The notes below the pieces were generated by a model. That model was not told the DNA's origin. It worked only from the letters and a program-made list of their open reading frames with translations, and did not search any database. Shown here piece by piece: positions 7,801 through 64,000 of a stretch of 64,000 bases of DNA. Each line of letters begins with the position of its first letter. Within the stretch, counting starts at the first letter, position 1. Source of the stretch: Schizochytrium sp. TIO01. Lineage: Eukaryota > Protista > Bigyra: Labyrinthulomycetes. Location of the stretch: assembly GCA_004764695.1 (NCBI GenBank), contig SMSO01000032.1:5860483-5924482 (forward strand), given 5' to 3'. A program made the position numbers and the translations under genes.

Positions 7801-10120
7801 GACTCGATGTGGGTGTTAAGGTTGGTGAATCTGTAGGGGAATCCGTGGGATTCAAAGTAGGTGTTAAGGTTGGTGATTCGGTAGGACTCGAAGTAGGTAT
7901 TAAGGTTGGCGATTCAGTAGGGAATTCAGTAGGACTTGAAGTGGGTGTTAAGGTTGGTGATTTGGTAGGGAAGTCAGTAGGACTCGAAGTAGGTATTAAG
8001 GTTGGTGATTCAGTAGGGAAATCCGTAGGATTTGAAGTAGGTGTTAAGGTTGGCGATTCAGTAGGGAAGTCAGTAGGATCTGAAGTAGGTGTTAAGGTTG
8101 GCGAATTTGTAGGAGATTCAGACGGATTCAAAGTAGGATTCAAAGTAGGATTCAAAGTAGGATTCGAAGTAGGATTCGAAGTAGGATTTGAAGTAGGTGT
8201 TAAGGTCGGTGACTCGGTAGGGGATTCAGTAGGACTCGATGTGGGTGTTAAGGTTGGTGAATCTGTAGGTGAATACGTAGGATTCAAAGTAGGTGTTAAG
8301 GTTGGTGATTCGGTAGGACTCGAAGTAGGTATTAAGGTTGGCGATTCAGTAGGGAATTCAGTAGGACTTGAAGTGGGTGTTAAGGTTGGTGATTTGGTAG
8401 GGAAGTCAGTAGGACTCGAAGTAGGTATTAAGGTTGGTGATTCAGTAGGGGAATCCGTAGGATTTGAAGTAGGTGTTAAGGTTGGCGAATTTGTAGGAGA
8501 TTCAGACGGATTCAAAGTAGGATTCGAAGTAGGATTCAAAGTAGGATTTGAAGTAGGTGTTAAGGTTGGGGAATCGGTAGGCGATTCAGTAGGACTTGAA
8601 GTAGGTGTTAAAGTTGGTGACTCAGTTGGGAAATTAGTAGGATTCGAAGTAGGTGTTAAGGTTGGTGAATTAGTGGGATTTGAAGTTGGTGAATCAGTAG
8701 GACTGTTTGTTGGTTCTTCAGTGATGTTATACCAATCAGCGTTGAAAACATCTCCTAATATTGCAGGAAATGTACTTTCTGCTCCACCCGCGAAAACATC
8801 AAATGGGGCATTAACGTAAATAGGATGTTCTGTTGTACCAAAAACTATAACACAAGATTCTGTTCCATCAATATACAATGTTGCATTACTACCATCAATA
8901 ACTTCTACATCAATATGATGCAAGTTCCCCAATTCTAAATCAATTTCCGAATCACAACCCTGGTTCGAATTTGATGTCGTTGATACCCTCAGAAGAAGCG
9001 TTGTAGAACCTTGTTTAATAAATAAAGCAGGTTGTCGCACATAAGCGGATGATTGTCTTTCTGATCCACGCTGAATGACACCCTGAGCAGTAGATGAGTA
9101 TATTTCATTCAATTGCATATCAAAACTGAAGTGGTAAGAATCTGTAATGATAATGTCTTCTTGAATTTTCGTTCGTGTCATAGATGGTGCGTTTGTTGGG
9201 GATAAGGTTGGTATATTTGTGGGAACTAGCGTTGGTTCTGAAGTTGGATTCAGAGTTGGATAGTTTGTGGGAACTAGCGTTGGTTCTGAAGTTGGATTCA
9301 GAGTTGGATAGTTTGTGGGAACTAGCGTTGGTTCTGAGGTGGGATTTAGAGTTGGGTAATTTGTTGGGAGTAGCGTAGGTTCTGAAGTAGGATTTAGAGT
9401 TGGGTTATTTGTTGGTGTGAATGTAGGATATAATGTAGGACTATGAGTGGGTGCGCTTGTTGGTGGGAAGTTAATTTGATCGTAACACTGACTCATATTA
9501 TGGAACCATATTGATCTCCCAGATTCCTTTGTATTACCGGTCGCCCAGTAACCTGATGCATAAGTATTACTTGTCATATCTGGCCCAACACAGTCATTTA
9601 ACCAACACCTTATATTGTACGTATCATCTGCTTGGGCTATATAAACCGAATTGCATACACCATCACCTGAAAGGGTGTAATTAATGCATTTATCTGCACA
9701 GAATACATAAGGATCATACGGTACAGGTAGACTATCATAATCATACGGTCCATCTTCTATCTGAATGCTGGCACAATTAAGTTTGTTATGACGATCCTGG
9801 TACGTCCACTTACCATCTACTCCGAAAAATGTAGTATTATCATAGTCCAAAGTTTCATACACGCACTTTGACATTCGATTTGAAGAGGTATACAGCTTCG
9901 TGGGGTCGCAGTCCATTTTAGGAATCATTCGTCCATCAACCCAAGATTCCATGTATTCCCCATTGAGATTACACGTGCTAGACATTGCATATCCCCTATT
10001 ACTCATGTATGGTGCTCCTGTTGGGGCAAACGTTGGACCTTGTGATGGTGTGAGTGTAGCCGAGACACTAAGTGATAGTAAACAATACCATGATAGATAA
10101 AGTAAGCTTAAGTTGATCAT
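4862..10120 (-). CDS. 1752-aa type I membrane glycoprotein: four Cys-rich (PAN/apple-like) repeats, a possible LamG-like domain and mucin-like P-T-x-x linkers
   Basis: Signal peptide; four copies of GYAMSS.C..NG...ES.VDGR.IP...YETLDYDNT.FF..DGKWTYQ..HN...PYDPYVFCA.KC...WATGNTKES.RSIWF; C-terminal TM helix and basic tail. Confidence 0.85.
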   Translation of the reverse strand: MINLSLLYLSWYCLLSLSVSATLTPSQGPTFAPTGAPYMSNRGYAMSSTCNLNGEYMESWVDGRMIPKMDCDPTKLYTSSNRMSKCVYETLDYDNTTFFGVDGKWTYQDRHNKLNCASIQIEDGPYDYDSLPVPYDPYVFCADKCINYTLSGDGVCNSVYIAQADDTYNIRCWLNDCVGPDMTSNTYASGYWATGNTKESGRSIWFHNMSQCYDQINFPPTSAPTHSPTLYPTFTPTNNPTLNPTSEPTLLPTNYPTLNPTSEPTLVPTNYPTLNPTSEPTLVPTNYPTLNPTSEPTLVPTNIPTLSPTNAPSMTRTKIQEDIIITDSYHFSFDMQLNEIYSSTAQGVIQRGSERQSSAYVRQPALFIKQGSTTLLLRVSTTSNSNQGCDSEIDLELGNLHHIDVEVIDGSNATLYIDGTESCVIVFGTTEHPIYVNAPFDVFAGGAESTFPAILGDVFNADWYNITEEPTNSPTDSPTSNPTNSPTLTPTSNPTNFPTESPTLTPTSSPTESPTDSPTLTPTSNPTLNPTSNPTLNPSESPTNSPTLTPTSNPTDSPTESPTLIPTSSPTDFPTKSPTLTPTSSPTEFPTESPTLIPTSSPTESPTLTPTLNPTYSPTDSPTLTPTSSPTESPTESPTLTPTSNPTSNPTSNPTLNPTLNPTLNPSESPTNSPTLTPTSDPTDFPTESPTLTPTSNPTDFPTESPTLIPTSSPTDFPTKSPTLTPTSSPTEFPTESPTLIPTSSPTESPTLTPTLNPTDSPTDSPTLTPTSSPTESPTDSPTLTPTLNPTISPTNKPTIEPTISPTDMSTNTPTGTPTTLTPSSVPSYAPTGAPYVNNRGYAMSSTCAHNGDFMESWVDGRMIPEMDCDPLKLYSEQNQQTECTYETLDYDNTTFFGEDGKWTYQDRHNKWMCDSVEVADGPYAYSSLPLPYDPYVFCAEKCINHTHSGDGVCNSVYIAQADDTYALRCYMYDCVGPNMTSDNYTTGYWATGNTKESGRSIWFKDMSECSSAVDEYLLNTLSPTHSPTLLPTVDPTLSPTHSPTLLPTVDPTLSPTHSPTLLPTVDPTLSPTHSPTLLPTVDPTLSPTLYPSATPTNNPTYYPTPDPTNMPTLTPTLIPTYYPTEYPTITPSQTPTNNPTLNPTIVPTNAPTSFPTISPTYYPSNEPTMAPVPTFSPTAYPTSAPFMSTRGYAMSSSCSHNGDFMESWVDGRMIPEMECDSSNLYTDQNKQGSCSFETLDYDNTTFFAEDGKWTYQNKHNRLNCDGVQVEDGPFPYNTLPTPYDPYVFCAERCINYTTSGAGVCNSVYISQSEDTYAVRCWLNDCVGPTLTSDEYLIGYWATGNTKESCRSIWFNDMPQCSLEVQQYLESTQQPTLYPTPAPTQQPTEYPSIGPTSAPTNTPTLLPTLYPSNRPTTMVPTKAPVLTPSPTMMPTLAPFISNKGYTMSSSCNVNGEFYTSEVDAREIPKLECSSNALYTEEYKKRTCFYETLDYDNTEFFAEDGKWTYQNQHNKLLCDNTLTIYGPYSESDLPEPYDPYVFCADKCIDYNIKDNTGTCNSVLITLSDDSHLLRCNLYDCVGPDMMSNTYDTGTWATGNTKESCRSIWFGDMANCIYSVENPTRAPTMNPTQVPTSITPTKSPITASPPPTLTRVPSVGPTYSPQTPTTSSPTSPTTSAPTHYQPSATPEPTTPPTSSSLGSQQLILYGSIIGGSLFLIILVVIVAICIHTYRKSKAQKRLQRNIIISNPTIL
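6853..7058. repeat. 48-bp coding tandem repeat, about 4 copies (PTLSPTHSPTLLPTVD)
   Basis: gtgtaggtgaaagagtaggatcgactgttggcaaaagcgttggtgagt repeated almost exactly. Confidence 0.9.
7770..8715. repeat. 12-bp-period P-T-x-x coding repeat with a higher-order duplication of about 420 bp
   Basis: Repeated gtaggtgttaaggttggt units; the block near 7795-8160 recurs near 8228-8530. Confidence 0.85.
9217..9410. repeat. 48-bp coding tandem repeat, about 4 copies (PTNYPTLNPTSEPTLV)
   Basis: tttgtgggaactagcgttggttctgaagttggattcagagttggatag repeated. Confidence 0.85.
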
Positions 10121-10185
10121 TTATACTCTTTATGTTATATTGATTCTATAAGCATATAATGGGAAAGTCAAAGAACATATACATA

Positions 10186-10530
10186 TTATATGACTTTAAT
10201 GTGAGAAATAAATAGTATTATTCCTAAACCGGTAAAATGTTCCGAAAACGTAGAGAGCCCTTTAACTAATATCGGTAGTGGAACACTCCGCGCTTTATTG
10301 CTTAGTTCTAAATTTCTGTTCCATGAATCATCCAGCACGAGTGTATCTTCGGGTAATCCACATTCGGCTTGAAGTAGTTTGAGATCATTGGCACCGTCAT
10401 CAAATGATAAACATAGATCTGTATTCCACCAATTTTGTAACTTATCAAATAAGTCCTCTTCAGGGCTAGCCTCTAATTGCATTAGAGATCCATCAAATAG
10501 ATCTTGTATACTAATACAATCTACTGTCAT
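10186..10530 (-). CDS. Small acidic hypothetical protein downstream of repeat array A
   Basis: ATG-initiated 114-aa ORF; D/E-rich with scattered W/F/L; hydrophobic C-terminus; preceded by CACCAAAC-type repeats. Confidence 0.55.
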   Translation of the reverse strand: MTVDCISIQDLFDGSLMQLEASPEEDLFDKLQNWWNTDLCLSFDDGANDLKLLQAECGLPEDTLVLDDSWNRNLELSNKARSVPLPILVKGLSTFSEHFTGLGIILFISHIKVI

Positions 10531-10628
10531 TTGTGAAAATTCAGTCTTGCGTTTGGTGTTTGGTGCTTGGTGTTTGGTGCTTTAAAGCTTGGAATATATC
10601 ATAATTACTAATGTAAGTTACAAGGATT

Positions 10629-10848
10629 ATTCGTTGACTAACAATAAGGTTTCTCGAAGGTTGCCTCTTGTTCTTGAGGAACATTCGTTGACTAACAATA
10701 AGGTTTCTCGAAGGTTGCCTTTTGTTCTTGAGGAACATTCGTTGAATATCAATAAGGTTTCTCGAAGGTTGTCTTTGTTCCTGAGGAACATTCGCTGAAC
10801 ATCAATAAGATTTCTCGAAAGTAGCTTTCTTGTTCCTGAGGAACATTC
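10629..10848. repeat. Intergenic tandem array A: 4 units of 53-55 bp
   Basis: Unit attcgttgactaacaataaggtttctcgaaggttgcctcttgttcttgaggaac starts at 10629, 10683, 10737 and 10790, diverging progressively. Confidence 0.95.
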
Positions 10849-10858
10849 TTTCGGTGTA

Positions 10859-11323
10859 TCACGATGATGATGTCTGAAGCTCAAACAAAAAGATAAGTTG
10901 TTGGTAGTTGACGAGGTGATTGATTAATTGGTCACGTAAAAGTCCATATAACTCTCCAGCGTCGCCATCTAGTCTGGCTTTATTTGCCTTGTTTATAATG
11001 GCTTTATATTCAACAATAGAAGATAGGATCTGTCGGTGGCAAGGGTGATCTTCACAAAATGCAACGCGTTTGTAAAATTGTGGATCGTGGAAAGTTTTAA
11101 AAATCGCCGTAGTTTCTGTATAGTCCATTTCTTTGACACACGCTTGAAACACTGTGTCAATATCTTCGACTTCTACATCATGCATTGATCGTTTTTTGGA
11201 AGACCGAATCTGCTGAGCGTTGGTGTTTGATTGTGTAAAGTTATGTTGCCGATTATTATGACGTGGTGTGTAGACAGTAATGAATTCTAGAAGCTTTCGC
11301 TCCACATCTGTTAGTTTATCCAT
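10859..11323 (-). CDS. Hypothetical protein
   Basis: 154-aa ATG ORF filling the gap between array A and RNR2. Confidence 0.7.
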   Translation of the reverse strand: MDKLTDVERKLLEFITVYTPRHNNRQHNFTQSNTNAQQIRSSKKRSMHDVEVEDIDTVFQACVKEMDYTETTAIFKTFHDPQFYKRVAFCEDHPCHRQILSSIVEYKAIINKANKARLDGDAGELYGLLRDQLINHLVNYQQLIFLFELQTSSS

Positions 11324-11413
11324 TGACCTCGTAGGTGTTACCGAAATATATGGTATCTATCACAGTTCATATAAGGTTTAAAGTATCAATTCCGCATTCA
11401 AGTCGAGATGCAA

Positions 11414-11426
11414 GCAAACCCCTAAC
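11414..11426 (+). promoter_or_regulatory. Putative early promoter/initiator motif GCAAACCCCTAAC (RNR small subunit)
   Basis: Identical 13-mer also lies 5' of dUTPase; variants lie 5' of more than 10 other genes. Confidence 0.7.
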
Positions 11427-11449
11427 GTAAATCAATCGAAGGTAAAAAA

Positions 11450-12466
11450 ATGATGACAATGAAGAAGAATGAAGGTGAGGTAGAGGAATACCCACTCACG
11501 ATTCGTGATGTGAAGCGTAGATACTCTTGTTTCCCAACGCACCACCATGATCTTTGGGCCCTCTACAATGATCGCGCACTAGGGACGATCTGGACCCCTG
11601 GAGATGTTGACTTGAGTGGTGATAAGGATCATTGGGACAACAAGCTCACTGCGGATGAGCGTCACTTTCTGACACATGTTCTTTGCTTTTTTGCATCTGC
11701 AGATGCTATAGTAGCTGAGAATATCAGTATCAACTTCATGACTGAGGTAGATGTTTTGGAGATCAAAATGTTCTACTCATACCAGGAGGGAAATGAGCAG
11801 ATTCACAGCCAAGTGTACTCCACCTTGATTCTAACATACCTCGTTGAACAGAAAGCTCAAGACGAAGCATTCCGTGCAGTCGAGCACATTCCTGGTGTTG
11901 CAGCCAAAGCAAACTGGGCTCTCAAGTTCTCGGACCGATCAGTAGCTCCATTTGCTGAAAGATTGATCGCATTCATCTGCCTCGAAGGTATTATGTTTGC
12001 AGGTTCTTTTGCAGCCATCTTCTACTTTCGCAGTCGCAATCTCCTTCCTGGACTCAGTCATGCAAACTCCTACATTATGCAGGATGAAATGCTCCATGTG
12101 GACTTTGCCATTGCCGTTTACTCGTACATGAAATCCCACCTGCGGCTTTCGGAAGAACGTGTTCATGAAATTTTCTCAGAGGCCGTTGAAATTGAGATGG
12201 ACTTTCTGGAAAATTCCATCCCAGTCGGACTGATCGGTCTAAATGCCGACATGATGAAGAATTATATCAAGTTCATGACAGACTCTTGGTTAGTTGCGCT
12301 TGGGTACAGCCCAATGTACGACATTACAGAGAATCCGCTCGACTTTATGGAGTTGGCCAATGTCAAGTGCAAGACCAACTTTTTTGAACGCCGCACAATC
12401 GAGTACGTCACTGGGCGCGGCATTTCTACTGAGGATCAAGCTTTCTCTCTCGATGCTGAGTTCTAA
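11450..12466 (+). CDS. nrdB: Ribonucleotide reductase small subunit
   Basis: WTPGDVDLS.D, FFASADAIV.EN, EQIHSQVYS, EGIMFAGSF, DEMLH, NFFERR, C-terminal LDAEF. Confidence 0.98.
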   Translation: MMTMKKNEGEVEEYPLTIRDVKRRYSCFPTHHHDLWALYNDRALGTIWTPGDVDLSGDKDHWDNKLTADERHFLTHVLCFFASADAIVAENISINFMTEVDVLEIKMFYSYQEGNEQIHSQVYSTLILTYLVEQKAQDEAFRAVEHIPGVAAKANWALKFSDRSVAPFAERLIAFICLEGIMFAGSFAAIFYFRSRNLLPGLSHANSYIMQDEMLHVDFAIAVYSYMKSHLRLSEERVHEIFSEAVEIEMDFLENSIPVGLIGLNADMMKNYIKFMTDSWLVALGYSPMYDITENPLDFMELANVKCKTNFFERRTIEYVTGRGISTEDQAFSLDAEF

Positions 12467-12486
12467 ATAAAAGTTTAATCATAGTT

Positions 12487-13428
12487 TCAATTTACATGTC
12501 TAGTTGCTAAATACATTGATAGAGGTAGAGTATTAACCGTCGTATTTGTTAAAAGTGGATTGAAAACACATTGATTGATAGCTACAGGGCTTAGATAATC
12601 TGCGTTATCAAGCTTGCGAATAAAAGATGAACGCAAAATTAGCTTTAGACGCTCGACGATCATCACAGCTAGTTTAATAGCTCCCCGCACATCGATTCCT
12701 TGATCACAGTACTTCGACAACAAATGTACCATAACCGCACGTTCGAGTCTCGAGAAGGGATTGTGATCAGCAAAGCAATAAGATAGATGCTCGGGTGGAA
12801 AAAGCTGCAAACGGTGCAGAATTGCTTGATCGATACCATTTTCATCGTATTCACAGTGTTGACCACTCAGGTGATTTACAAAATCTTCCCCGCAGGAATC
12901 GCCTCTATGAAAAAGGTCATTTAGCAAAATGGCAGCTTTGACCTTATGCCACCCTTTACCGTTAGGATCTGTTTGGCGTTCAATAAATGCATGAAACATA
13001 TTCTCGCCTGGCGTAAGTTGCGGGAATGGTCCATCATCGGCACTATGTAGTCTATGTTTATCCGAGTGTGTCATCTTAAGGCGAAGAAATTTGGGTAACA
13101 ACTTATGATCAGCCTTTTTAGGGAATGGGTCCTTATCGGTTCTCACACTTACACTATCACCATCATCATCACGATCATCATTGGATTCATCAACGACTTC
13201 GGCCATAGGGATATAACGACGTGCCTGTGATTTTGCACTGTACTCGTGTGCCTCTTGTTCCTTGGCATGTCGTGTGCGCCGTGCACTCCTCCGATCCGCC
13301 TTTTCACTGTCAAACGCGTCATTCAGAACGCTTCCACCCAATGTCTGAAGCCCGTCTCCGTCTAGGGTTGGTCCCCCGCCGCTTGATTCAATGTTACTGT
13401 ATCGTCTAAGTGACTTCTTATGATGCAT
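12487..13428 (-). CDS. Hypothetical protein with disordered N-terminus (ORF open to 13530; ATG at 13428 preferred)
   Basis: Long ORF; the 13428 start avoids overlap with the resolvase gene. Confidence 0.7.
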   Translation of the reverse strand: MHHKKSLRRYSNIESSGGGPTLDGDGLQTLGGSVLNDAFDSEKADRRSARRTRHAKEQEAHEYSAKSQARRYIPMAEVVDESNDDRDDDGDSVSVRTDKDPFPKKADHKLLPKFLRLKMTHSDKHRLHSADDGPFPQLTPGENMFHAFIERQTDPNGKGWHKVKAAILLNDLFHRGDSCGEDFVNHLSGQHCEYDENGIDQAILHRLQLFPPEHLSYCFADHNPFSRLERAVMVHLLSKYCDQGIDVRGAIKLAVMIVERLKLILRSSFIRKLDNADYLSPVAINQCVFNPLLTNTTVNTLPLSMYLATRHVN

Positions 13429-13495
13429 CCTGATAATTAATGATTTTCTAGTATATAATAGCAAAAGGATTCCATGTATATATTCGTGAACTCCC

Positions 13496-14083
13496 ATGAT
13501 TATTCTATCAATCGATCCTGGGATCGTCAATATGGGAGTTGCGATCTACAATAGTGACTCTGAAGAAATCATTTTTGCTAAGAAATTATCTTTAGGTAAA
13601 AGAATGCGGGATGTGCAAGAAAAAAATACTATAAATGATATCTATAAAATTTTCTTTGACCCTTCGAAATCACCTATTGCAGAATTTATTGACCGTATTC
13701 AAGTTATTCTCATTGAACAACAAATGAAAAGAAGGTTTTTGATTATTCAACACGTTATTGGTGCTATAGCCATGATGCTCAATATCAAGTACTATTTTGT
13801 TCCTCCTCAAGTCATAAAAAGACATTTCGGGTTTGGCCACAAGAAGGGGGCTAAGAAGTCATCCTCCTCTTCTGTCTCGACATCTAGAGGAAAAACAAAA
13901 AAAAGCATGCATCGGGCGAATAAGAAGAACGCTATTGATATTGTAGACAGAATTTTACCTGAAATCTTGCAGAAGAACAACAAAACTTTGAAAACGGCAA
14001 CAAGGTCTATTACAATTAAGGATGATGATATTGCAGACGCTTTCTTACAAGCCTTATGGTTTAGTCAAACCAATAGAATCTAA
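13496..14083 (+). CDS. RuvC-like Holliday junction resolvase (poxvirus A22-like)
   Basis: ILSIDPGIVNMG, ILIEQQ, and KDDDIADAFLQA carry the RNase H-fold acidic residues. Confidence 0.9.
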   Translation: MIILSIDPGIVNMGVAIYNSDSEEIIFAKKLSLGKRMRDVQEKNTINDIYKIFFDPSKSPIAEFIDRIQVILIEQQMKRRFLIIQHVIGAIAMMLNIKYYFVPPQVIKRHFGFGHKKGAKKSSSSSVSTSRGKTKKSMHRANKKNAIDIVDRILPEILQKNNKTLKTATRSITIKDDDIADAFLQALWFSQTNRI

Positions 14084-26691: not shown

Positions 26692-26800
26692 TTAAAAAAA
26701 AAAAAGAAAGAAAGAAAGAAAAGGAGTGGAGCAGTAACACCAAAACCAAAACCAAAACCAAAACCAGAAGCCACAGAATCCACAGAATCCACAGAAGCCC
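26692..26800. repeat. Microsatellite cluster 5' of the REase-kinase gene
   Basis: A12 followed by (GAAA)n, (CCAAAA)x4 and (CCACAGAAT/G)x3. Confidence 0.85.
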
Positions 26801-33641: not shown

Positions 33642-36600
33642 TTACTTTGTTGTCTTTGCGAAGAAGCTACTGATGAGTTCCTTAGACTTGAGTGGTTTAA
33701 CGGCCTTTTTATCAATCTTTTTCTTTTTCGGAGGGGGTGCGGTGACATTTTTGAGCACCTTACCATCTAATGATAAAGATACTTGACGCGTAGAGTATTT
33801 TTCCGAAATGTCCGGCCCTTCCTCGGACCTTATACGCTTGTTCGTTACATACGTTTGACAACCCAAGTGACTTAACATGTCTCCCTCCCTAGACGAAGCC
33901 ACAGAGGTCTCGGTGTAGCTGGATGGACGCAGTAACTTCTCCGATTTTAATCTACCGAATGCATACTCCAAATAAGTACGCATGGGTTTATCAATGAACG
34001 TTGTGGAGTAGTAATTGTAATCAAGCGGAACGTTTTGCAATGAGCGGGCAAGCTCCATATCAATAAGAGCATGCTGGACATCGGTGCGTTTGTGCTCTTT
34101 GCGGAGAACGACATATTCAAACCGTTCACCTAGAACGGGACATTCGGCAGGCCCTAAACGGCTCACCATGCGCTTCCAACAATCAATGTGAGCTCCTGGC
34201 TTTCCATTGCCTGACCCACCTATCTTGTTGATCTTTTTAGTAATACCAAATTCTTCCAAGGGGATCCTACCCGCAAATAGATCTTCCATGGTGGACTTCA
34301 CGTGATTGTACGCAGCATCCTCATCCTTTTCGACGATGAATTTTTCAAAAAATCCTTTCATTGCCCTCGTACATAAAAGCGCAGTATCACGGCGAATATA
34401 ACGGATACCCATGGCTTTGAGTTTAAATTTGGTTGGGTCATTTTCATAGAGAGCCCCGATGTAGTTTTTCTTTTTAGAAATCATAAAGGGGTAAAAGGTT
34501 TTTTCATACTCAAAGTTGTGAGGCGCATATCCTTTGAGGCAGTCTACACGAAAACTTTTCTCAATGAGATGGCCATACGAAATCGCCTTCTCAATACTCA
34601 CACCAGGCAGTTTGAAGAAAATTGAATCTGTGTCACCATAAATGACAATCGCAGCAAGAGGTTCTCCTGTCAACCTAGTATAATTTGCTTCTACGTACTC
34701 TTTGAACATGACTAGCATAAAACGACCACGCCCCGTAATAGTTCGCGCAAGTGGCAACAAAGGAACGGTCGCGTCTTTGGAACCCAACATACCATACAGT
34801 GAATTCATGACGATCTTTGTTCCCAGTTGAATGGATTCGTACACATTATATCCATCAGAGTCTGCATCGAATTGGTCGCGTGCATTCTTGGCTTCTTTGC
34901 GTTCGCGCGCCAGATCAGTTTGCATCTTAACAAAGATACCTTCATGAACACGCTTGGCAATAAAATACTCTTTGTCGATGAGTTTATAGTCATCAGGGTG
35001 CAATACACGATCATGATCATCCAGACAGTAAGTATCCCAACTCAAATTATCACAACGCATCACACTAGGGTAAAGAGAAGCAGCATCACAGACCACAACA
35101 GGATCTTTGTGATAACCAACAGTAGGTTCAAGTACAAACGCACCATCGTAGCTCCCTTCAAAGGTTGGCTTCTGACTTTTGGTAAAACTCGGGATGAGGA
35201 AGTTTGATGCACGAGTATAATGCTGAATCTTGCTAATGAGCTTAAATACTAGCCCCTTGTCCAAGACGACATTGACATTTGTACCAAGGACACTAGCCAT
35301 ACCAAGCGATTTCACGACCAACGACGCAACGCGGTCAAGTGACAACAACAAAAGCGAATCTTTTAGACAGTATTTTGCGATCGTAGCTCTCCCCTGGGGA
35401 CTCTTAAAAAATTCAGGAATATCACGATACCTGAGATCCTCTTTATTGTCATCGTGCAAAAAATGTGAGCAAACAGACTTCAATGAGTATGACCGAAGTC
35501 GCAAGGTAACATCACCCTTTAATATTTCGAACATATCCATCATGGTCATACCAGGTGAATTGTAAATATTCACAAGACGTTCTCCACTTTGATTACTAGA
35601 ACGTGATACCTTTTGAAAGCTCAATTTACAACCACGCCTCCATGTCAACTCTTTTGCGTAGGAAATACGTAGAACATCCATCCGGCTAAGAATGTAAGGC
35701 ATATCAAATTGGTTGCTATTGTAACCAATCATGAATTCGATCGAATACTCGCGTACAAGTTTAGCAAAGTAAACTAGCATCTGGTCTTCCGATTCAAACG
35801 ATATGTAGTCATCTGAACTAGGCGTCTCCTGTAAGCATAGAACACCCTGGCGAATAATATCTTTCGTTCCATCTGAAATAACAAATGAAATCTGAATCAC
35901 AGGACAACTTTCTGGATAAGGGAAGACGTTCACATCATAAGTGAGACATTCAATGTCAAAGTACATATTTCTGGGAATGTAAAGTGGTACGTCTGGATCT
36001 TGTGTGCGATAGAGCTTAGTACAAGAACCAATATGGTACTTTGCCGTACAGCTAAGTTTGTTTTCAGCAAGTTTTATGCCCTCAAATGTGACGGCAGTAC
36101 CAGTAGCAATATCATGGGATACCATGAACTTCGAGACCGGGCAGAGATTAGCCTCAAAAAATAACCAGCCAGGGTGTTTTTTAGAAAGACGCGCAAACAG
36201 AGCCTTGGTGACGGTCGGGCTGAGAGTGTAGATTTTGATAAATTTCCCACACTTACGCTGGAACCCATACACTGACTTGTGATCGTTAACAATCTCAAAC
36301 TTCAACACAAGTTCACAGTTTGTGTTTACTAGGATATGTCCCCCTTGGCGGGGTACTTCTTTTCCAGAGTTCATGATGGACCTAAATCTATCGGGAAAGA
36401 GATGGTTATTATAAAACCATACTTGATTATTAACGACACGTACAACTTCCTGGTATCGGGGGTGATTTCCTGACGAAGCCGGTCCATCTTCATTTCGAAT
36501 CTGTACATAAAAAAAGTCACAGAGGGGTTTGGTGATCAGATATGTCGTTGAACGATCACGTGCATCACGCGCATAGATGAAAGCATTGGCGCCACTAACA

Positions 36601-37097
36601 GTGTCTTCCCAATCGACATTGACTATGTGGGCAGTGCCTTTAAATGATTCTTCAGGTAGTTCCTCATGAACTCTCGATCGCTTGATAGAAATAGAGTTCA
36701 AATGCGCATCCGGAGGTTTCTTGTTTGTGTCAGATTTCTGGCCGAGATCATGTTTCGAATCACAGTCATTGTAAATGACGTTACTTCTTCTCTTGAGTGC
36801 ACTAAGCTCTTCAACAAAAGAATCCACATTGGATTTCTCATGTAGATTATGCAAAAATGTTTCCCAGATTCGCTTCACGTTATTGAAATGATGGGTATCA
36901 CCAATTTGATCAATGTCGGAAACCGTTGAAGTTTCTAGGGCAAGTCGAATGTCATCCTGTACAGTCATCAATCCATTGATGATCTGCGTCCATGACTCTA
37001 CATATGAAGGGTCGTCTTCAAACACATCAATCTTATGCACAATGCCCAGTGCCTTCGCGTTCTCCAAGAGTTTAGAATCCATTTTTTTTCTATTCAA
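33642..37097 (-). CDS. polB: Family B DNA polymerase (delta-like); first ATG at 37082
   Basis: ExoI FDIEC, ExoII GYNSNQFD, ExoIII YCLKDS; Pol DAASLYPS, K...NSLYG, YGDTDS, KKNY. Confidence 0.98.
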   Translation of the reverse strand: MNRKKMDSKLLENAKALGIVHKIDVFEDDPSYVESWTQIINGLMTVQDDIRLALETSTVSDIDQIGDTHHFNNVKRIWETFLHNLHEKSNVDSFVEELSALKRRSNVIYNDCDSKHDLGQKSDTNKKPPDAHLNSISIKRSRVHEELPEESFKGTAHIVNVDWEDTVSGANAFIYARDARDRSTTYLITKPLCDFFYVQIRNEDGPASSGNHPRYQEVVRVVNNQVWFYNNHLFPDRFRSIMNSGKEVPRQGGHILVNTNCELVLKFEIVNDHKSVYGFQRKCGKFIKIYTLSPTVTKALFARLSKKHPGWLFFEANLCPVSKFMVSHDIATGTAVTFEGIKLAENKLSCTAKYHIGSCTKLYRTQDPDVPLYIPRNMYFDIECLTYDVNVFPYPESCPVIQISFVISDGTKDIIRQGVLCLQETPSSDDYISFESEDQMLVYFAKLVREYSIEFMIGYNSNQFDMPYILSRMDVLRISYAKELTWRRGCKLSFQKVSRSSNQSGERLVNIYNSPGMTMMDMFEILKGDVTLRLRSYSLKSVCSHFLHDDNKEDLRYRDIPEFFKSPQGRATIAKYCLKDSLLLLSLDRVASLVVKSLGMASVLGTNVNVVLDKGLVFKLISKIQHYTRASNFLIPSFTKSQKPTFEGSYDGAFVLEPTVGYHKDPVVVCDAASLYPSVMRCDNLSWDTYCLDDHDRVLHPDDYKLIDKEYFIAKRVHEGIFVKMQTDLARERKEAKNARDQFDADSDGYNVYESIQLGTKIVMNSLYGMLGSKDATVPLLPLARTITGRGRFMLVMFKEYVEANYTRLTGEPLAAIVIYGDTDSIFFKLPGVSIEKAISYGHLIEKSFRVDCLKGYAPHNFEYEKTFYPFMISKKKNYIGALYENDPTKFKLKAMGIRYIRRDTALLCTRAMKGFFEKFIVEKDEDAAYNHVKSTMEDLFAGRIPLEEFGITKKINKIGGSGNGKPGAHIDCWKRMVSRLGPAECPVLGERFEYVVLRKEHKRTDVQHALIDMELARSLQNVPLDYNYYSTTFIDKPMRTYLEYAFGRLKSEKLLRPSSYTETSVASSREGDMLSHLGCQTYVTNKRIRSEEGPDISEKYSTRQVSLSLDGKVLKNVTAPPPKKKKIDKKAVKPLKSKELISSFFAKTTK

Positions 37098-37144: not shown

Positions 37145-37157
37145 GTTAAGGTTTTGC
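37145..37157 (-). promoter_or_regulatory. Putative early motif GCAAAACCTTAAC (PolB)
   Basis: Reverse complement of gttaaggttttgc, about 60 nt 5' of the ATG. Confidence 0.65.
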
Positions 37158-37196: not shown

Positions 37197-37362
37197 TTCG
37201 AGAAACAATTTCACTCTGGCTCTTTTCGGGCGAACTGCGCAGTTTTAACGCGAATGAACATTTTGAACTAGGTTCTCGTTGCTAGTTGTCGCAATGCCCC
37301 TCTACATCGGCTATTTGACTAATTTGCACGATAACTTCAATCGTGTTCCAGGAACATTCGTT
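37197..37362. promoter_or_regulatory. Single copy of the array-A regulatory module upstream of PolB
   Basis: TTCGAGAAAC at 37197 (reverse complement of array-A GTTTCTCGAA), TTGACTAA at 37315, TGTTCC-A-GGAACATTCGTT at 37344-37362. Confidence 0.55.
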
Positions 37363-48394: not shown

Positions 48395-48794
48395 CGTAAA
48401 TGTTTAAAGACACGGCGAGTTCCGGGTTTACTTCTTCACCATGCCAATATTTTTGATAATTATTAAATTGGTTATAAATTATATCTGATCATAGTTGTTT
48501 ATTATTTGAGAAGGTTTGATACATCATTCTTCTCGAAGAATTGAAAAACACTATAGTTTTCAAAGTAATAGTAGCTATTAATTTTTCACACCGGGTCAAC
48601 CTTTCTCTAACCCCGAAAAGAATGTCTGAAGAAAGTTCCAGCGAGAGCAAATATCTTTGCAAACCCAAAGCTCCAGCTCATCAACCTATCAAAGAACGAG
48701 AAAGAATATCTTCATAATTACTAAGCCATTTTAAACAATCACTTGACAAGACAATGGAGACTTTGAATAATGGAAATTTCCTTTTTTTTATTTC

Positions 48795-49331: not shown

Positions 49332-49423
49332 GATTACAAGTTTATGATCAAAGATTTCAACAGTCTACTTATGATTTAAATACTCTGGCTCTTTGAATAA
49401 AATTCCAATATAGTACTACTGTA

Positions 49424-49744
49424 GTTAAGGGTATATAAAATCTGTAGTAGTTGGAAAATCACAAGTAGCCCTGGGTCCCTACCCTCGGGTGCTGCGAATT
49501 TGAGGATTCCTGGATAGGAGTTAATATGGTGGGGGTAGAATAGACATGCGATTATTGATTTTGAAATCCCAAAAATTCAAATTCTCAACCCAAAACTCCA
49601 ACTCTCCCATATTAAAGTGACTTTTCTCCGCAGAAAATCTAGATAGAGACTCATGTACTTTTCAAAAAGGTATCGCTTTTATCGCTTTTATCGCTTTTAT
49701 CGCTTTTATTCGGGGGGTATAAACCGAGTTAAGAAATGACGGAA
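49424..49744 (+). repeat. Inverted repeat, left copy (about 320 bp)
   Basis: Reverse complement of 58432-58753 with about 21 differences by manual alignment (~93%); (TATCGCTTT)x4 at 49671-49706. Confidence 0.97.
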
Positions 49745-54404: not shown

Positions 54405-54500
54405 CGAGGTGTGTCTAGAACTTTTTATAAGTACATATTCAATCCTTCTTTAATTGAACATATAACGTTAATCTTCAAGAAGAGTTTTAAGAAAGCTACC

Positions 54501-58431: not shown

Positions 58432-58753
58432 TTCCGTCATTTGATTAACTCGGTCTATACCCCCTCAATAAAAGCGATAAAAGCGATAAAAGCGATAAAA
58501 GCGATACCTTTTTGAAAAGTACATGGGCCTCTATCTAGATTTTTTGCAGAGAAAAGTCACTTTACTATGGGAGAGTTGGAGTTTTGGGTTGAGAATTTGA
58601 ATTTTCGGGATTTCAAAATCGATAATCGCATGTCTATTCTACCCCCACCATATTACCTCCTATCAAAGAATCCTCAGATTGGCGGTACCCGAGGGTAGGG
58701 ACCCAGGGCTACTTGTGATTTTCCAACTACTACAAATTTTATATACCATTAAC
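58432..58753 (-). repeat. Inverted repeat, right copy
   Basis: Reverse complement of 49424-49744; (AAAGCGATA)x4 at 58471-58506. Confidence 0.97.
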
Positions 58754-58815
58754 TCTAATAATATTTCTTTGATACTATATGGTACTTTTGATATACTGTA
58801 TAATACTATAGTATT

Positions 58816-60099
58816 TTGTTGAGAATGCTGGAACTTCTTGGAATGTTCCTTGTAGGAATGTTGAACGCTGAAGTCGCATTCGCAACAACTTATTTTGAAA
58901 ATGATATGATTATGACGCAAACACAGCTAAGAGGAACGTATGGTTCAGAGACTCTCCAGAAGGTTCTCCAGAACGGTGAAATTTACCTTGAACCCGAACT
59001 TACGGATAACTCTAGTCTTATTAATACACTTCTAGAAAATAATAATTTGAGTGCGGCTGTTGACATTTCGGCGTCTAGTAGATGGGCTTACCGCACAGAT
59101 GACGGTCTACAGGCTATTGTTCCATATCATATTAATATGACGTATTTCGGAACAGGGACGCGTGATAAAATTACACAATACTTGACAGAAATGGAGTCGC
59201 AAGTAGAATACGTGAAATTTGTTGCATGGGAGGAAGAAGGTAATAGTAATTACTATGAAGATTACGTTGATATAGTTGATTTAAATGATGGCTGTGCGTC
59301 ACGTGTTGGAAGAGTTGGGGGTCGTCAGGTTCTGACTCTTTCAAGTTCAGGTTGCATTTATCCTGGAACAGTCAAGCACGAAATGCTACATGCTATGGGT
59401 TTCTACCACGAACATTCCCGAGGCGATCGAGATGAATATGTTGTCATTCATTGGGATGATATTGAGTCTGGAGCAGAGGTAAATTTCGAGAAAAGAGCCG
59501 ACAGGATTAACACACTTGGAACAGCATACGATCTAAATTCTGTGATGCATTATCATCGAACTGAATTCGCGGTAAGTAATGCTTCTATTACCGCTATTGA
59601 TGATTTCTATAGAGATCTTGGCGCGAGTGATATAGCTCAGAGTGATATTAGGAGAGTGCAGTTGGTTTATCGTTGCGAAGAGACGCGTGATGATGCTGAA
59701 TTTTGCGATCAAGAGTGCCCTTGTCCGGCCGGCCAATTCCCATGTTATAGTGATGACGACTGCGAATCAGGAACGCATTGCTTGATAGAAAACCAAACAT
59801 GTATGGTAGGAACATTTGCACCCACCATGCCTACTCCAGAGCCAACTTATTCACCGACGAATATCGGGGAAACTTATGCTCCTACACAGTCACCCACAAC
59901 ACGGAAACCTACCAATTATCCTACAGCGTATCCTACAGTGGCATCACCAGGTACTTCCGTCACGATAAGCATCGGTGGAAACTTTTTCCCCGAGGTGATT
60001 GGTTTCTTCAAAGACGCAACTCTTTCCAATGTGAACGGTAAACTTATAATTGTATTGATTATCATCACAACTGGACTCATTGTGAGTACATTGCGATAG
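58816..60099 (+). CDS. Membrane-anchored astacin (M12A) zinc metalloprotease
   Basis: HEMLHAMGFYHEHSRGDRD, Met-turn SVMHY, GCASRVGR, Cys-rich module, PT linker, C-terminal TM helix. Confidence 0.93.
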   Translation: MLRMLELLGMFLVGMLNAEVAFATTYFENDMIMTQTQLRGTYGSETLQKVLQNGEIYLEPELTDNSSLINTLLENNNLSAAVDISASSRWAYRTDDGLQAIVPYHINMTYFGTGTRDKITQYLTEMESQVEYVKFVAWEEEGNSNYYEDYVDIVDLNDGCASRVGRVGGRQVLTLSSSGCIYPGTVKHEMLHAMGFYHEHSRGDRDEYVVIHWDDIESGAEVNFEKRADRINTLGTAYDLNSVMHYHRTEFAVSNASITAIDDFYRDLGASDIAQSDIRRVQLVYRCEETRDDAEFCDQECPCPAGQFPCYSDDDCESGTHCLIENQTCMVGTFAPTMPTPEPTYSPTNIGETYAPTQSPTTRKPTNYPTAYPTVASPGTSVTISIGGNFFPEVIGFFKDATLSNVNGKLIIVLIIITTGLIVSTLR

Positions 60100-62378: not shown

Positions 62379-62969
62379 TTAGTCTAAGCTTCGATCCGGT
62401 AGTTTCATCATCAAGTCTCTTGGCAATTTCAAACCAAGACACACCCACGAAACATCAAAACTTGCTGCATAGTTACCTCGCCTTGTGGGTCGAGCGTATG
62501 GATCAACTGCGGGTCCGTGGGTGAGTGGGTCTAAAAAACGACACCTCTTACAATGAGCAATGATTTGTGGTTCAAGTGAGTACTTTTCTACTAGTTCATA
62601 AAAATAGCTTGTATAAATTGTTGCTGCGGGAAGAAGAATTGCAAACCGCCGAATTCCCAGCTTCTCAATAATGTGACGTATAACATCATGCTTTCGACTG
62701 AAAGGCGGATTGGTAACTAAAACGAGAGATTTTCCCGGTGGACAATAAGGTACTGTGCTTTTGAAAAAATCTTCTGTGCCTACATTATGAACAACGTGGA
62801 AACCGAAGGATTCCATCACTTGAGTACTAAAATTCGATCCTGGAAATGGCTCCCAGAGTACATCTCGTGAAGGGTCAAGGTGCTCCAGTGCCATCTTGAG
62901 GGCGGAGGGTGGTGTTTCATAGAGATCATTCTTAGATCGGTTTTGAATATCGCTTGTATACAATGACAT
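62379..62969 (-). CDS. Small N6-adenine DNA methyltransferase-like protein
   Basis: DLYETP, motif-I-like WEPFPGS, motif IV VTNPPFS; ATG at 62969. Confidence 0.8.
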   Translation of the reverse strand: MSLYTSDIQNRSKNDLYETPPSALKMALEHLDPSRDVLWEPFPGSNFSTQVMESFGFHVVHNVGTEDFFKSTVPYCPPGKSLVLVTNPPFSRKHDVIRHIIEKLGIRRFAILLPAATIYTSYFYELVEKYSLEPQIIAHCKRCRFLDPLTHGPAVDPYARPTRRGNYAASFDVSWVCLGLKLPRDLMMKLPDRSLD

Positions 62970-63039: not shown

Positions 63040-63696
63040 TTATTCGCTGATCATACTACAATAGATCTTAGCAAATCGTTCACGCGATTGTACATCGGGA
63101 AATATGTTCATCCAATCGCTACAAATATAGTGTGACATGAATTGTCTTAGATATTCATAGAGAAAGGCCATAACAACCTTGACACACCAGATTGCCTGAT
63201 AAGAATTGCCTTTCAATCTAGGAAGAATGACATTCACAAATGCGGCATTGAAGTACATACGTTGATGATCAGCCGATGCGTACATCGAGGCGAAATTCAT
63301 CTTGAGAGATGCAAGTGTGCAGCTTCTAGCAAATCTCTGCAAGAGAACGTTGGAATTGATAAAGTACCCAGTCAGGTTCTCGTTGAGTGCAGTAAACTTT
63401 TCAACATAACGTTGGAAACGAAACTTAGGATCACCAAAGTTTTTAAAAGCATGTACTACCTCATCAAAAGAGTTGAGTTGGAAAAGGGGTGGGCTGGTCG
63501 CTTGCTCGAGCTCCCCTACCGTCAAGCCATACGCTGTTATTGAATCGTCACTGAGATTTTCGTTCAAATCAAGAGCATGCTCACCAGTCTCGAAAATGGG
63601 ATCGAGCTCGTAATCAGGCATTTTGGTAAGGAATTGTTTCAAATGTTCCACCTTGCTGTTATCTTTAGTATAATCACGAGTACTATGAGTGGACAT
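63040..63696 (-). CDS. Hypothetical protein downstream of repeat array B (ATG at 63696 preferred)
   Basis: ORF extension to 63858 runs through CAAAACC-type repeats and into array B, so it is probably non-coding leader. Confidence 0.7.
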   Translation of the reverse strand: MSTHSTRDYTKDNSKVEHLKQFLTKMPDYELDPIFETGEHALDLNENLSDDSITAYGLTVGELEQATSPPLFQLNSFDEVVHAFKNFGDPKFRFQRYVEKFTALNENLTGYFINSNVLLQRFARSCTLASLKMNFASMYASADHQRMYFNAAFVNVILPRLKGNSYQAIWCVKVVMAFLYEYLRQFMSHYICSDWMNIFPDVQSRERFAKIYCSMISE

Positions 63697-63814
63697 GGTG
63701 GACAAACAGACACAAAGGGTGCTTTGGTGCTTTGGTGTTTCGGTTTTGATGTTTCGGTTTTGATGTTTGGTTTTGCTCGCGCATCCTACGTTAGTGCAAT
63801 AGGTATATGTCTGT

Positions 63815-64000
63815 GAAGTCAAGGAGAGTTGACTACTCATGTTCTTGGAAGCCATCAAAGCAACGTTCCGAGGAGTTCTAGAGCAGATAGTTTAGATCTT
63901 CGCGAAGTCACTATGAATTGACTACTCATGTTCTTGGAAGCCACCAAAGGAACATTCCGAGAAGTTCTAGAGCAGATAGTTTAGATCTTCGCGAAGTCAA
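63815..64000. repeat. Intergenic tandem array B: 89-bp unit, at least 2 copies, cut by the window end
   Basis: ttgactactcatgttcttggaagcca.caaag.aac.ttccgag.agttctagagcagatagtttagatcttcgcgaagtca starting at 63829 and 63918. Confidence 0.93.

What the first reader, a model, noticed from the sequence alone, without database searches (positions are those of the whole stretch)
10530..10848. Heat-shock-element-like enhancer module shared by two tandem arrays and the PolB promoter: candidate stress-responsive switch
Seen: array A (4 x ~54 bp) carries TTGACTAA (first two units), GTTTCTCGAA and TGTTCYTGAGGAACATTC. Array B (63815-64000) has a different unit length but the same ordered core, TTGACTA...TGTTCTTG...GGAACATTC. 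The PolB upstream region has one copy (TTGACTAA 37315, TGTTCCAGGAACATTCGTT 37344, TTCGAGAAAC 37197), and TTCTCGAAG lies upstream of topo II at 48530. Both arrays sit 5' of a minus-strand orphan gene, followed by CACCAAAC/CAAAACC repeats and then the ATG. Known: GAAnnTTC and TTCnnGAA are the inverted nGAAn pairs bound by eukaryotic heat-shock factor. Inference: multimerised host-factor sites drive two immediate-early orphan regulators plus PolB, which could couple host stress to reactivation of a persistent virus.
Basis: partly seen in the sequence, partly recalled or inferred. Interest (0 to 1): 0.8.

Follow-up and report, generated by a model that had tools for sequence, protein, structure and literature searches.

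The report
Heat-shock-factor-like enhancer arrays in mirusvirus
A likely chromosome-integrated giant virus of a marine protist carries two tandem DNA arrays built from the GAA/TTC pairs that heat-shock-type transcription factors bind, which likely let a host factor keep a few viral genes on while most stay quiet; whether heat would reawaken the virus is untested.

Summary
The window is a close, syntenic relative of AurliV-2, the integrated, mostly quiet mirusvirus of Aurantiochytrium. The arrays and coordinates are real. The shared core is (A)GGAACATTC with a nearby TTC/GAA. Intergenic GAAnnTTC is enriched even with arrays collapsed (8 vs 2.0 expected, 0 of 400 shuffles), and strain differences in array A avoid GAA/TTC bases (1 of 51 vs 18 of 116). 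TTGACTAA is neither enriched nor conserved. No array holds a perfect three-unit heat-shock element. In published unstressed RNA-seq, the orthologue of the array-B gene ranks first of 17 window genes with values, and its divergent partner is also high. PolB is ordinary per kb and has a separate, genome-wide GCAAA(A/C)CC promoter motif. Best reading: multimerised sites for a host HSF-family factor acting as enhancers of latent-phase genes (0.5). A heat-triggered reactivation switch is untested (0.2), and 'immediate-early regulators' has no support.

The parts
10629..10848 (.). Array A: 4.1 x 54-bp units, each with one TTCnnGAA and one GAAnnTTC pair, spaced 26-29 bp apart along the array
   Evidence: a fifth unit in 2 of 4 diverged runs (joint 10829 to 10775)
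10551..10582 (-). 7-bp leader repeats between array A and the ATG, likely in the 5' UTR; copy number varies
   Evidence: indels at 10550 and 10576; also matched by long contigs that otherwise do not lie on the stretch, likely host
10186..10530 (-). ORF10530, 114-aa orphan, orthologue of AurliV-2 ORF958 (no JGI gene model, so no published RNA value)
   Evidence: a contig of run X15 (RNA is a guess) covers 10147-10558
10859..11323 (-). Upstream orphan ORF (AurliV-2 ORF809) whose stop codon lies 10 bp from array A
63829..63999 (.). Array B: 89-bp units, cut by the window end. Unit 2 holds the best intergenic HSE-like site of the window (gapped, in register, at 63950); unit 1 is degenerate
   Evidence: the core is identical upstream of AurliV-2 ORF786
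63718..63775 (-). Leader repeats between array B and the ATG, beginning with a GCAAAACC promoter-type word
63040..63696 (-). ORF63696, 218-aa orphan, orthologue of AurliV-2 ORF786 (Aurli1_13247), 621/398 RNA units in two media
37344..37362 (.). Single palindromic copy of the core, about 260 bp 5' of the PolB ATG and 145 bp 3' of the HIT gene
37145..37157 (-). PolB proximal promoter motif GCAAAACCTTAAC, a class shared with RNR-S, dUTPase, TBP and other genes
33642..37082 (-). Family B DNA polymerase (AurliV-2 ORF946 orthologue)
48527..48540 (.). Single TTCnnGAA dimer inside a short palindrome upstream of topoisomerase II; weak candidate
58828..58851 (-). 24-nt near copy (22 of 24) of the array-B core inside the first codons of the astacin ORF; may be chance or dual use

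Best explanation
Arrays A and B are tandem repeats of GAA/TTC pairs upstream of two orphan genes in an AurliV-2-type mirusvirus, and they likely act as multimerised binding sites for a host heat-shock-factor-family protein that would drive these genes through host RNA polymerase II while most of the provirus is quiet. Shown: the repeats, the enrichment of the 2-bp-spaced GAA/TTC pair, its preferential retention between strains, and high unstressed expression of both genes flanking array B in AurliV-2. Inferred: the identity of the factor (host, HSF family), enhancer action in both directions at array B, and use of Pol II. The sites are non-canonical (dimers, imperfect or gapped triples, a recurring 2+3 spacing), which fits the flexible stramenopile HSFs better than an animal-type heat-shock trimer; basal or life-stage activation is therefore more likely than a pure heat switch. 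The lone PolB copy is at most a minor input on top of PolB's own promoter motif.
For: GAAnnTTC 8 vs 1.97 in collapsed intergenic DNA, 0 of 400 shuffles, best of 14 spacings; 5 of the 8 lie outside A, B and PolB. Two arrays with unrelated unit lengths share the core. GAAnnTTCnnnGAA (either strand) has 6 hits at 5 loci, 3 of them intergenic: A, B and PolB. Strain substitutions in 10629-10795 hit 1 of 51 GAA/TTC bases and 18 of 116 others (Fisher p 0.008; 0.04 with the change at 10761 added). The array-B core is identical in AurliV-2 while flanking bases differ. ORF786 gives 945 reads/kb against a median of 20 for 17 window orthologues with values, and ranks first on raw values too; its divergent partner ORF302 gives 876/kb; the three genes on the other side give 10-18/kb (from PMC12606086 Supplementary Data 2). 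No HSF domain among 44 window proteins, and no 'heat shock' or 'HSF' annotation in the AurliV-2 table, so an HSF-type binder would be the host's. A thraustochytrid expresses a gene annotated as HSF (PMC7760700, passages). Oomycete HSFs bind TTC/GAA with 0-, 1- and 2-bp gaps and many are life-stage regulated (PMC11267843, passages).
Against: No binding or reporter data. No perfect triple, which PMC9157408 gives as the requirement for stable HSF1 binding. The core motif was chosen after seeing A and B, so its p-values are post hoc. Unit 1 of array B has lost two GAA triplets here, and unit 3 of array A is damaged in the diverged runs. The Fisher test uses only the 40 of 195 difference rows shown, from 4 runs that share most changes and so are not independent. 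Array A's gene has no published RNA value; in run X15 its contig depth (5.5) is no higher than RNR-S (9.5), though contig depth cannot rank genes. The expression link rests on one locus; ORF783 (427/kb) and HIT (225/kb) are also well expressed, and I could not see ORF783's upstream DNA. The motif is absent upstream of PolB in the distant relatives L011-L014 (34-37% identity; L012 and L013 are one sequence there, L014 has only 125 nt upstream).
Confidence: 0.5

Rival explanations
1. Strict version of the first reader's idea: the arrays are heat or proteotoxic-stress switches. Activated host HSF induces two immediate-early regulators and PolB and so reactivates the provirus. This is a sub-case of the best explanation.
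For: HSF-register dimers; a gapped in-register site in array B (p 0.014) and imperfect triples in array A (p 0.010) against 3000 shuffles each. AurliV-2 has no known inducer, and its authors leave open that it is active under other conditions. Precedents: ONSEN LTR, EBV Qp, HIV LTR.
Against: The array-B genes are already high at 28 C in rich media. Starvation does not raise AurliV-2 proteins. PolB tracks replicative genes, not ORF786. No regulator signature in either orphan. No perfect triple.
Confidence: 0.2
2. The palindromic units are sites for a virus-encoded protein and work like baculovirus homologous regions or a herpesvirus lytic origin: dispersed palindrome arrays that serve as replication origins and enhancers (comparison recalled, not from a call).
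For: The cores are palindromes with TGTTCC/GGAACA-type arms in array A and at PolB. Array A folds far better than shuffles as single-stranded DNA (z -3.4, 0 of 200). The copies are dispersed, at about 10.7, 37.3 and 63.9 kb, and unit number varies between strains.
Against: Arm spacing differs between loci (3 bp in A, 1 bp at PolB, no matching palindrome in B), which suits a fixed homodimer poorly. The fold score follows trivially from repeated palindromes. The arrays sit in promoter position, and array-B genes are expressed while capsid genes are nearly silent. No clear GC-skew switch at either array.
Confidence: 0.22
3. The arrays are neutral minisatellites amplified from promoter DNA; the HSE likeness is partly chance and partly the sharing of a short duplicated word.
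For: Variable unit number, decayed units and 19 substitutions in 167 bp. 0.5% of 54-bp windows elsewhere also hold two dimers. A 22-of-24 copy sits inside coding DNA.
Against: Substitutions avoid GAA/TTC bases; the same core sits in two arrays of unrelated period and at PolB; expression peaks on both sides of array B.
Confidence: 0.18
4. Array A and the PolB copy are 3'-end (termination or polyadenylation) hairpin signals of the upstream minus-strand genes, as in some giant viruses (recalled), rather than promoter elements.
For: Array A starts 10 bp after the stop of ORF10859-11323, the PolB copy lies 145 bp after the HIT stop, and array A can fold.
Against: In AurliV-2 array B lies between divergent genes, 3' of neither.
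Confidence: 0.07

Closest known systems
AurliV-2 (LE-Chr15), integrated mirusvirus of Aurantiochytrium limacinum (PMC12606086; bioRxiv 10.1101/2023.06.15.545109)
   Same: Same gene order, orientation and near-identical ORF lengths from thymidylate synthase to ORF786 in the table rows read. The array-A gap is 349 bp there and 328 bp here; the array-B core is identical.
   Different: A different strain-level variant. Neither paper's main text has the word 'promoter' (0 occurrences each), so these elements are not described there. The PolB-HIT gap is 396 bp there and 424 bp here, and I could not see whether the PolB copy is kept.
Canonical heat-shock element (three inverted nGAAn units; PMC9157408)
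   Same: 2-bp-spaced inverted GAA/TTC pairs upstream of genes; imperfect and gapped in-register triples.
   Different: No perfect triple; a recurring 2+3 spacing; heat response not shown.
HSE-bearing mobile or viral promoters: ONSEN LTR (PMC13602373), EBV Qp and HIV-1 LTR (PMC9157408)
   Same: A genome-resident or latent element that would borrow a host HSF for its own transcription.
   Different: Here the sites are tandemly amplified in two unrelated arrays inside a roughly 300-kb DNA virus of a stramenopile, and the linked genes are on without heat.
Punuivirus two-class latency architecture (bioRxiv 10.64898/2026.10.09.758095)
   Same: An endogenous giant virus in which latent genes look host-driven while many other genes share a viral promoter motif. 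Here that would be arrays against GCAAA(A/C)CC.
   Different: There the host-like marks are introns and 6mA, 'HSF' and 'enhancer' do not occur in the text, and the virus is a nucleocytovirus, not a mirusvirus.
Multimerised immediate-early enhancers and baculovirus homologous regions (recalled, no call)
   Same: Tandem units with short palindromic factor sites next to early genes.
   Different: Binding factor, kinetics and origin activity are unknown here.

Membership tests
Canonical heat-shock element | Inverted nGAAn pentamers with 2-bp spacing above background | tested here: met
   GAAnnTTC 8 vs 1.97 (0 of 400), TTCnnGAA 5 vs 1.86 (11 of 400)
Canonical heat-shock element | Three contiguous perfect inverted units (TTCnnGAAnnTTC) | tested here: not met
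   0 intergenic and 5 coding perfect triples; definition from PMC9157408
Canonical heat-shock element | Tolerated variants: imperfect or gapped in-register triples | tested here: inconclusive
   Own simple score: A unit 1 p 0.010, B unit 2 p 0.014; A unit 3, B unit 1, PolB and topo II not significant; 6 coding sites score above array B's and 6 tie with it
Canonical heat-shock element | Bound by HSF | not testable with these tools
   needs EMSA, DAP-seq or CUT&Tag
Canonical heat-shock element | Confers heat-inducible transcription | not testable with these tools
   no heat-shock data seen; published values are unstressed (28 C) or starvation
Immediate-early enhancer/promoter | Multimerised factor sites 5' of a gene | tested here: met
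Immediate-early enhancer/promoter | Gene expressed when most viral genes are quiet | tested here: inconclusive
   Holds for the array-B gene's orthologue; no value for the array-A gene
Immediate-early enhancer/promoter | Transcribed without new protein synthesis | not testable with these tools
   needs a cycloheximide experiment
Immediate-early enhancer/promoter | Downstream gene encodes a transcriptional regulator | tested here: inconclusive
   no family, homologue or confident fold for either orphan
hr/oriLyt-like palindrome arrays | Dispersed tandem arrays with palindromic cores | tested here: met
   array B's palindromes differ from array A's
hr/oriLyt-like palindrome arrays | Supports replication in cis and binds a viral factor | not testable with these tools
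   needs a plasmid replication assay
AurliV-2-type mirusvirus | Orthologous, syntenic gene set (PolB, topo II, Rpb1, TBP, HJR, RNR, dUTPase) | tested here: met
   TBP and HJR by Pfam only, as that part of the table was not read
AurliV-2-type mirusvirus | HK97-fold capsid module and chromosomal integration | not tested
   outside the window; no genome held; unreviewed scan notes report a 5S rRNA junction about 70 kb beyond the window

The most novel reading that the evidence does not exclude
An endogenous mirusvirus has wired its latency switch to the host heat-shock factor: amplified HSF-site arrays of variable copy number set a basal latent programme and, under heat or proteotoxic stress, induce orphan master genes and PolB to reactivate a provirus for which no inducer is known.
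Probability: 0.2. Interest if true: 0.8.

Novelty: new variant of a known kind. Interest (0 to 1): 0.5.

Why it matters
My literature searches and the two AurliV-2 papers turned up no promoter or enhancer described for a mirusvirus. Why AurliV-2 is quiet and what would wake it is an open question in PMC12606086. These arrays, together with the separate GCAAA(A/C)CC motif, give a concrete two-class promoter model that can be tested in a cultured host with one heat-shock RNA-seq and one reporter series. If HSF control is real, temperature would link to reactivation of a provirus whose DNA is held by many runs of protist-sized genomes (11 listed runs hold half or more of the query's words), which bears on marine decomposers and on strains used to make fatty acids. 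If the activity is only basal, it still points to the likely latency genes of a mirusvirus.

Tried and rejected
No whole genome was held, so array B beyond 64000, other arrays and host HSP promoters could not be examined. IMG/VR: no PolB relative; the 18-nt core gave 10 single hits with no second array word, treated as chance. Metagenome scan: 5 PolB loci, no shared core upstream; too distant to count strongly. Run search: no RNA holder on record. Of 4 runs guessed as RNA, X17, X18 and X20 had no contig over ORF10530, which is no evidence either way. Orphan searches: ORF63696 had no hit among 41 candidates, one weak repeat-like hit (E 8e-7, residues 8-66), no atlas hit and a model with pLDDT 37 (not searched). 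ORF10530 had no hit; atlas leads to RNase H/3'-5' exonuclease clusters scored 0.83-0.88, below the usable level; its model (pLDDT 50) gave no Foldseek match at E 0.001 and a best Z of 4.2. Rfam: 0 matches in the window. A STAT-type TTCnnnGAA reading was dropped: 3 vs 1.87 expected (110 of 400), and STATs are not known to me in stramenopiles (recalled). TTGACTAA as a W-box or AP-1-like part was dropped. The 11-nt word shared between array A and 54396-54500 appears by eye to come from unit-4 spacer DNA and was treated as chance. Scan notes by sequence and by words returned nothing. Supplements of the bioRxiv preprints were not opened and may hold repeat annotations.

Full report
What the window is. 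Pfam finds thymidylate synthase, both RNR subunits, an A22-type resolvase, TBP, the N-terminal part of Rpb1, PolB, a HIT protein, topoisomerase II, dUTPase, ankyrin and astacin genes among 44 ORFs scanned. The best named PolB relative is from the thraustochytrid Hondaea fermentalgiana (41% identity). Short peptide words from window proteins hit the AurliV-2 table of PMC12606086 and not its AurliV-1 table: 2 of 3 words (all 7 files searched) and 2 of 3 (AurliV-2 file only). The table rows I read (parts 18 and 20-24 of 30) are syntenic with the window. The window is therefore a strain-level relative of AurliV-2, the chromosomally integrated and largely quiet mirusvirus. Of that paper I read the first three of nine parts of the text, the RNA-seq methods section, passages, and those supplement parts. 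Eleven listed runs hold half or more of the words of 9000-14000. Two unreviewed scan notes place a virus/5S rRNA junction about 70 kb beyond the window; I did not test this.

The observation. Array A is 4.1 x 54 bp at 10629-10848 and array B is 1.9 x 89 bp at 63829-63999, cut by the window end. To avoid counting tandem copies as independent, I cut each array to one unit, dropped one arm of a 336-bp inverted repeat and shuffled the 36 remaining intergenic regions 400 times. GGAACATTC was 3 vs 0.03, GAAnnTTC 8 vs 1.97 (0 of 400, best of 14 spacings) and TTCnnGAA 5 vs 1.86 (11 of 400). The 5-bp spacings were also raised (TTC-n5-GAA 5 of 400, GAA-n5-TTC 17 of 400). TTGACTA was 3 vs 1.0 (35 of 400). 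The PolB region shares a 13-nt word with array A, the longest of 24 regions (0 of 100 shuffles). The shared module is real, but it is the GAACATTC core with a neighbouring TTC or GAA, not TTGACTAA.

How HSE-like. PMC9157408 (passages) defines stable HSF1 binding as three contiguous inverted pentamers. No intergenic site meets this; all 5 perfect triples are in coding DNA. Array A units 1 and 2 have triples with one mismatch, array B unit 2 has a gapped in-register site, and PolB has a one-mismatch triple. On my own simple score, A unit 1 and B unit 2 beat shuffles (p 0.010, 0.014), while A unit 3, B unit 1, PolB and topo II do not, and 6 coding sites score higher than array B's. The recurring form is GAAnnTTCnnnGAA: 6 hits at 5 loci, in A, B, PolB, the astacin start and one other coding site. 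Oomycete HSFs, the nearest stramenopile data I found, bind TTC/GAA with 0-, 1- or 2-bp gaps and are often life-stage regulated (PMC11267843, passages). A thraustochytrid expresses a gene annotated as HSF (PMC7760700, passages). No HSF domain was found in the window or named in the AurliV-2 table.

Variation between strains. Contigs of 4 DNA runs were laid on 9800-12600 (40 of 195 difference rows shown). Two runs have an extra 55-bp unit. Of 19 shown substitutions in 10629-10795, 1 hits the 51 GAA/TTC bases and 18 hit the 116 others (p 0.008; p 0.04 when the change at 10761, seen in 2 of 4 runs, is added). Four fall in unit 2's TTGACTAA, and one of them creates a GAA three bases after the TTC, as in the later units. 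The four runs share most changes, so this is roughly one branch. Upstream of AurliV-2 ORF786 the array-B core is identical while TTGACTA is altered. Against strong selection on every unit: unit 1 of array B has lost two GAA triplets in this window. Distant mirusvirus-like PolB loci (34-37% identity) lack the core upstream.

Expression. Of 36 window orthologue rows seen, 17 have RNA values and 19 have none (no model, 'nd' or 'na', which I do not read as zero). The kinase-1 value comes from a row cut at a part boundary and was assigned by order. The parts of the paper I read do not say whether values are length-normalised. ORF786, the array-B gene, ranks first both raw (621/398) and per kb (945/605, against medians of 20/9). 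Its divergent partner across the 726-bp gap, ORF302, gives 876/278 per kb; the three genes on the other side give 10-18. Only 10 AurliV-2 genes exceed 500 units and the capsid genes are nearly silent. These cultures were at 28 C on rich agar. PolB is second raw (204/42), but per kb it equals RNR-S (59 vs 56) and it shifts 4.9-fold between media, like Rpb1 (4.2) and topo II (3.3) and unlike ORF786 (1.6). HIT, which abuts the PolB copy, is also fairly high (225/kb). Starvation raised 45 of 67 AurliV-1 proteins but no AurliV-2 protein (2 of 9 fell). ORF958, the array-A gene, has no gene model. One run guessed to be RNA has a 422-nt contig over 10147-10558 and none over the array or the upstream ORF, which fits a transcript starting just below the array, although a break at the leader repeats could explain the end.

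A second promoter class. GCAAA(A/C)CC occurs 15 times in the window, and 9 of these are in sense within 120 bp of an ATG (p 2e-9, post hoc): RNR-S, TBP, ORF16858, kinase 1, PolB, the PD-(D/E)xK nuclease, dUTPase, ankyrin and ORF63696. It usually continues CCYYAAC. PolB thus has an ordinary proximal motif at -75, with the HSE-like copy about 260 bp away. This resembles the two-class design reported for punuivirus (bioRxiv 10.64898/2026.10.09.758095, abstract and passages).

The orphans. Neither protein has a family, homologue or usable fold. Calling them regulators is a guess.

Mechanism and odds. Most likely (0.5), a host HSF-family factor binds the repeated non-canonical sites and drives the adjacent genes in the latent state, in both directions at array B; binding, factor and polymerase are inferred. 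Within that, a true heat-triggered reactivation switch gets 0.2. Rivals are viral-factor or origin-type palindrome arrays (0.22; array A folds with z -3.4, but arm spacing differs between loci), neutral minisatellites (0.18) and 3'-end hairpins (0.07; fails for array B).

Relation to what is known. HSF use by latent or genome-resident elements is known for EBV Qp and the HIV LTR (PMC9157408) and for ONSEN (PMC13602373, passages). These arrays work like such sites on the best reading but fail the strict HSE test, so I do not file them as heat-shock elements. Searches for mirusvirus with heat shock (6 papers, 5 listed, none on this by title or abstract start), with promoter, motif and upstream and for AurliV-2/LE-Chr15 found no description; 'promoter' has 0 occurrences in PMC12606086 and in bioRxiv 10.1101/2023.06.15.545109 (passages). 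Two other preprints were seen as abstract and outline only. The library lacks most subscription papers, and preprint supplements were not seen.

Verdict. A real, apparently undescribed cis-element family in a mirusvirus provirus, with one good expression correlate and a plausible but unproven HSF link; the stress-switch and immediate-early claims are untested. New variant of a known kind, interest 0.5.

Noticed in passing
window 49397-49732 and 58445-58780: A 336-bp inverted repeat pair (91% complementary), each arm with a 9-bp array of 4.3 copies, flanks 8.7 kb holding dUTPase, two large secreted-type ORFs and an ankyrin gene. Possible invertible segment or old mobile cassette; the genes inside have the same orientation in AurliV-2.
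   Followed up: partly
window, upstream of 9 genes (e.g. 11414, 14700, 20807, 37157, 40770, 51402, 58398): Candidate mirusvirus promoter motif GCAAA(A/C)CCYYAAC at -18 to -80 from the ATG (9 of 15 occurrences, p 2e-9). Several copies contain CCTAA, the host telomere unit named in bioRxiv 10.1101/2023.06.15.545109, so it may be a telo-box-like site. Arguably a stronger signal than the HSE-like core.
   Followed up: partly
window 10551-10582; also 26739-26766: The 7-bp leader repeat matches long, high-depth contigs with 1 mismatch in DNA runs and in runs guessed as RNA, which suggests a host-like 5' UTR repeat. Kinase 2 has a similar ACCAAA leader array, and its orthologue is expressed evenly in both media.
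   Followed up: partly
window 58828-58851: A 22-of-24 copy of the array-B core lies within the first codons of the astacin ORF and is kept in AurliV-2; rough chance estimate 2e-4.
   Followed up: partly
window 62379-62969: An ORF with no Pfam hit whose AurliV-2 orthologue is annotated as N6-adenine methyltransferase-like; of interest given 6mA-marked latent genes in punuivirus.
   Followed up: no
window 31072-33594: The Rpb1 homologue is only 840 aa and ends early in domain 5, which suggests a split large subunit; same length in AurliV-2.
   Followed up: no
window 10400-10830, run X4: Run X4 holds two haplotypes of the array-A region (depths about 15 and 23), one identical to the window and one like the diverged runs: two alleles or two copies of the element.
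   Followed up: no
L012 269-919 and 8498-8721: A distant mirusvirus-like PolB locus also has intergenic tandem arrays (168-, 78-, 83- and 62-bp units) with different motifs, so such arrays may be general in this group.
   Followed up: no
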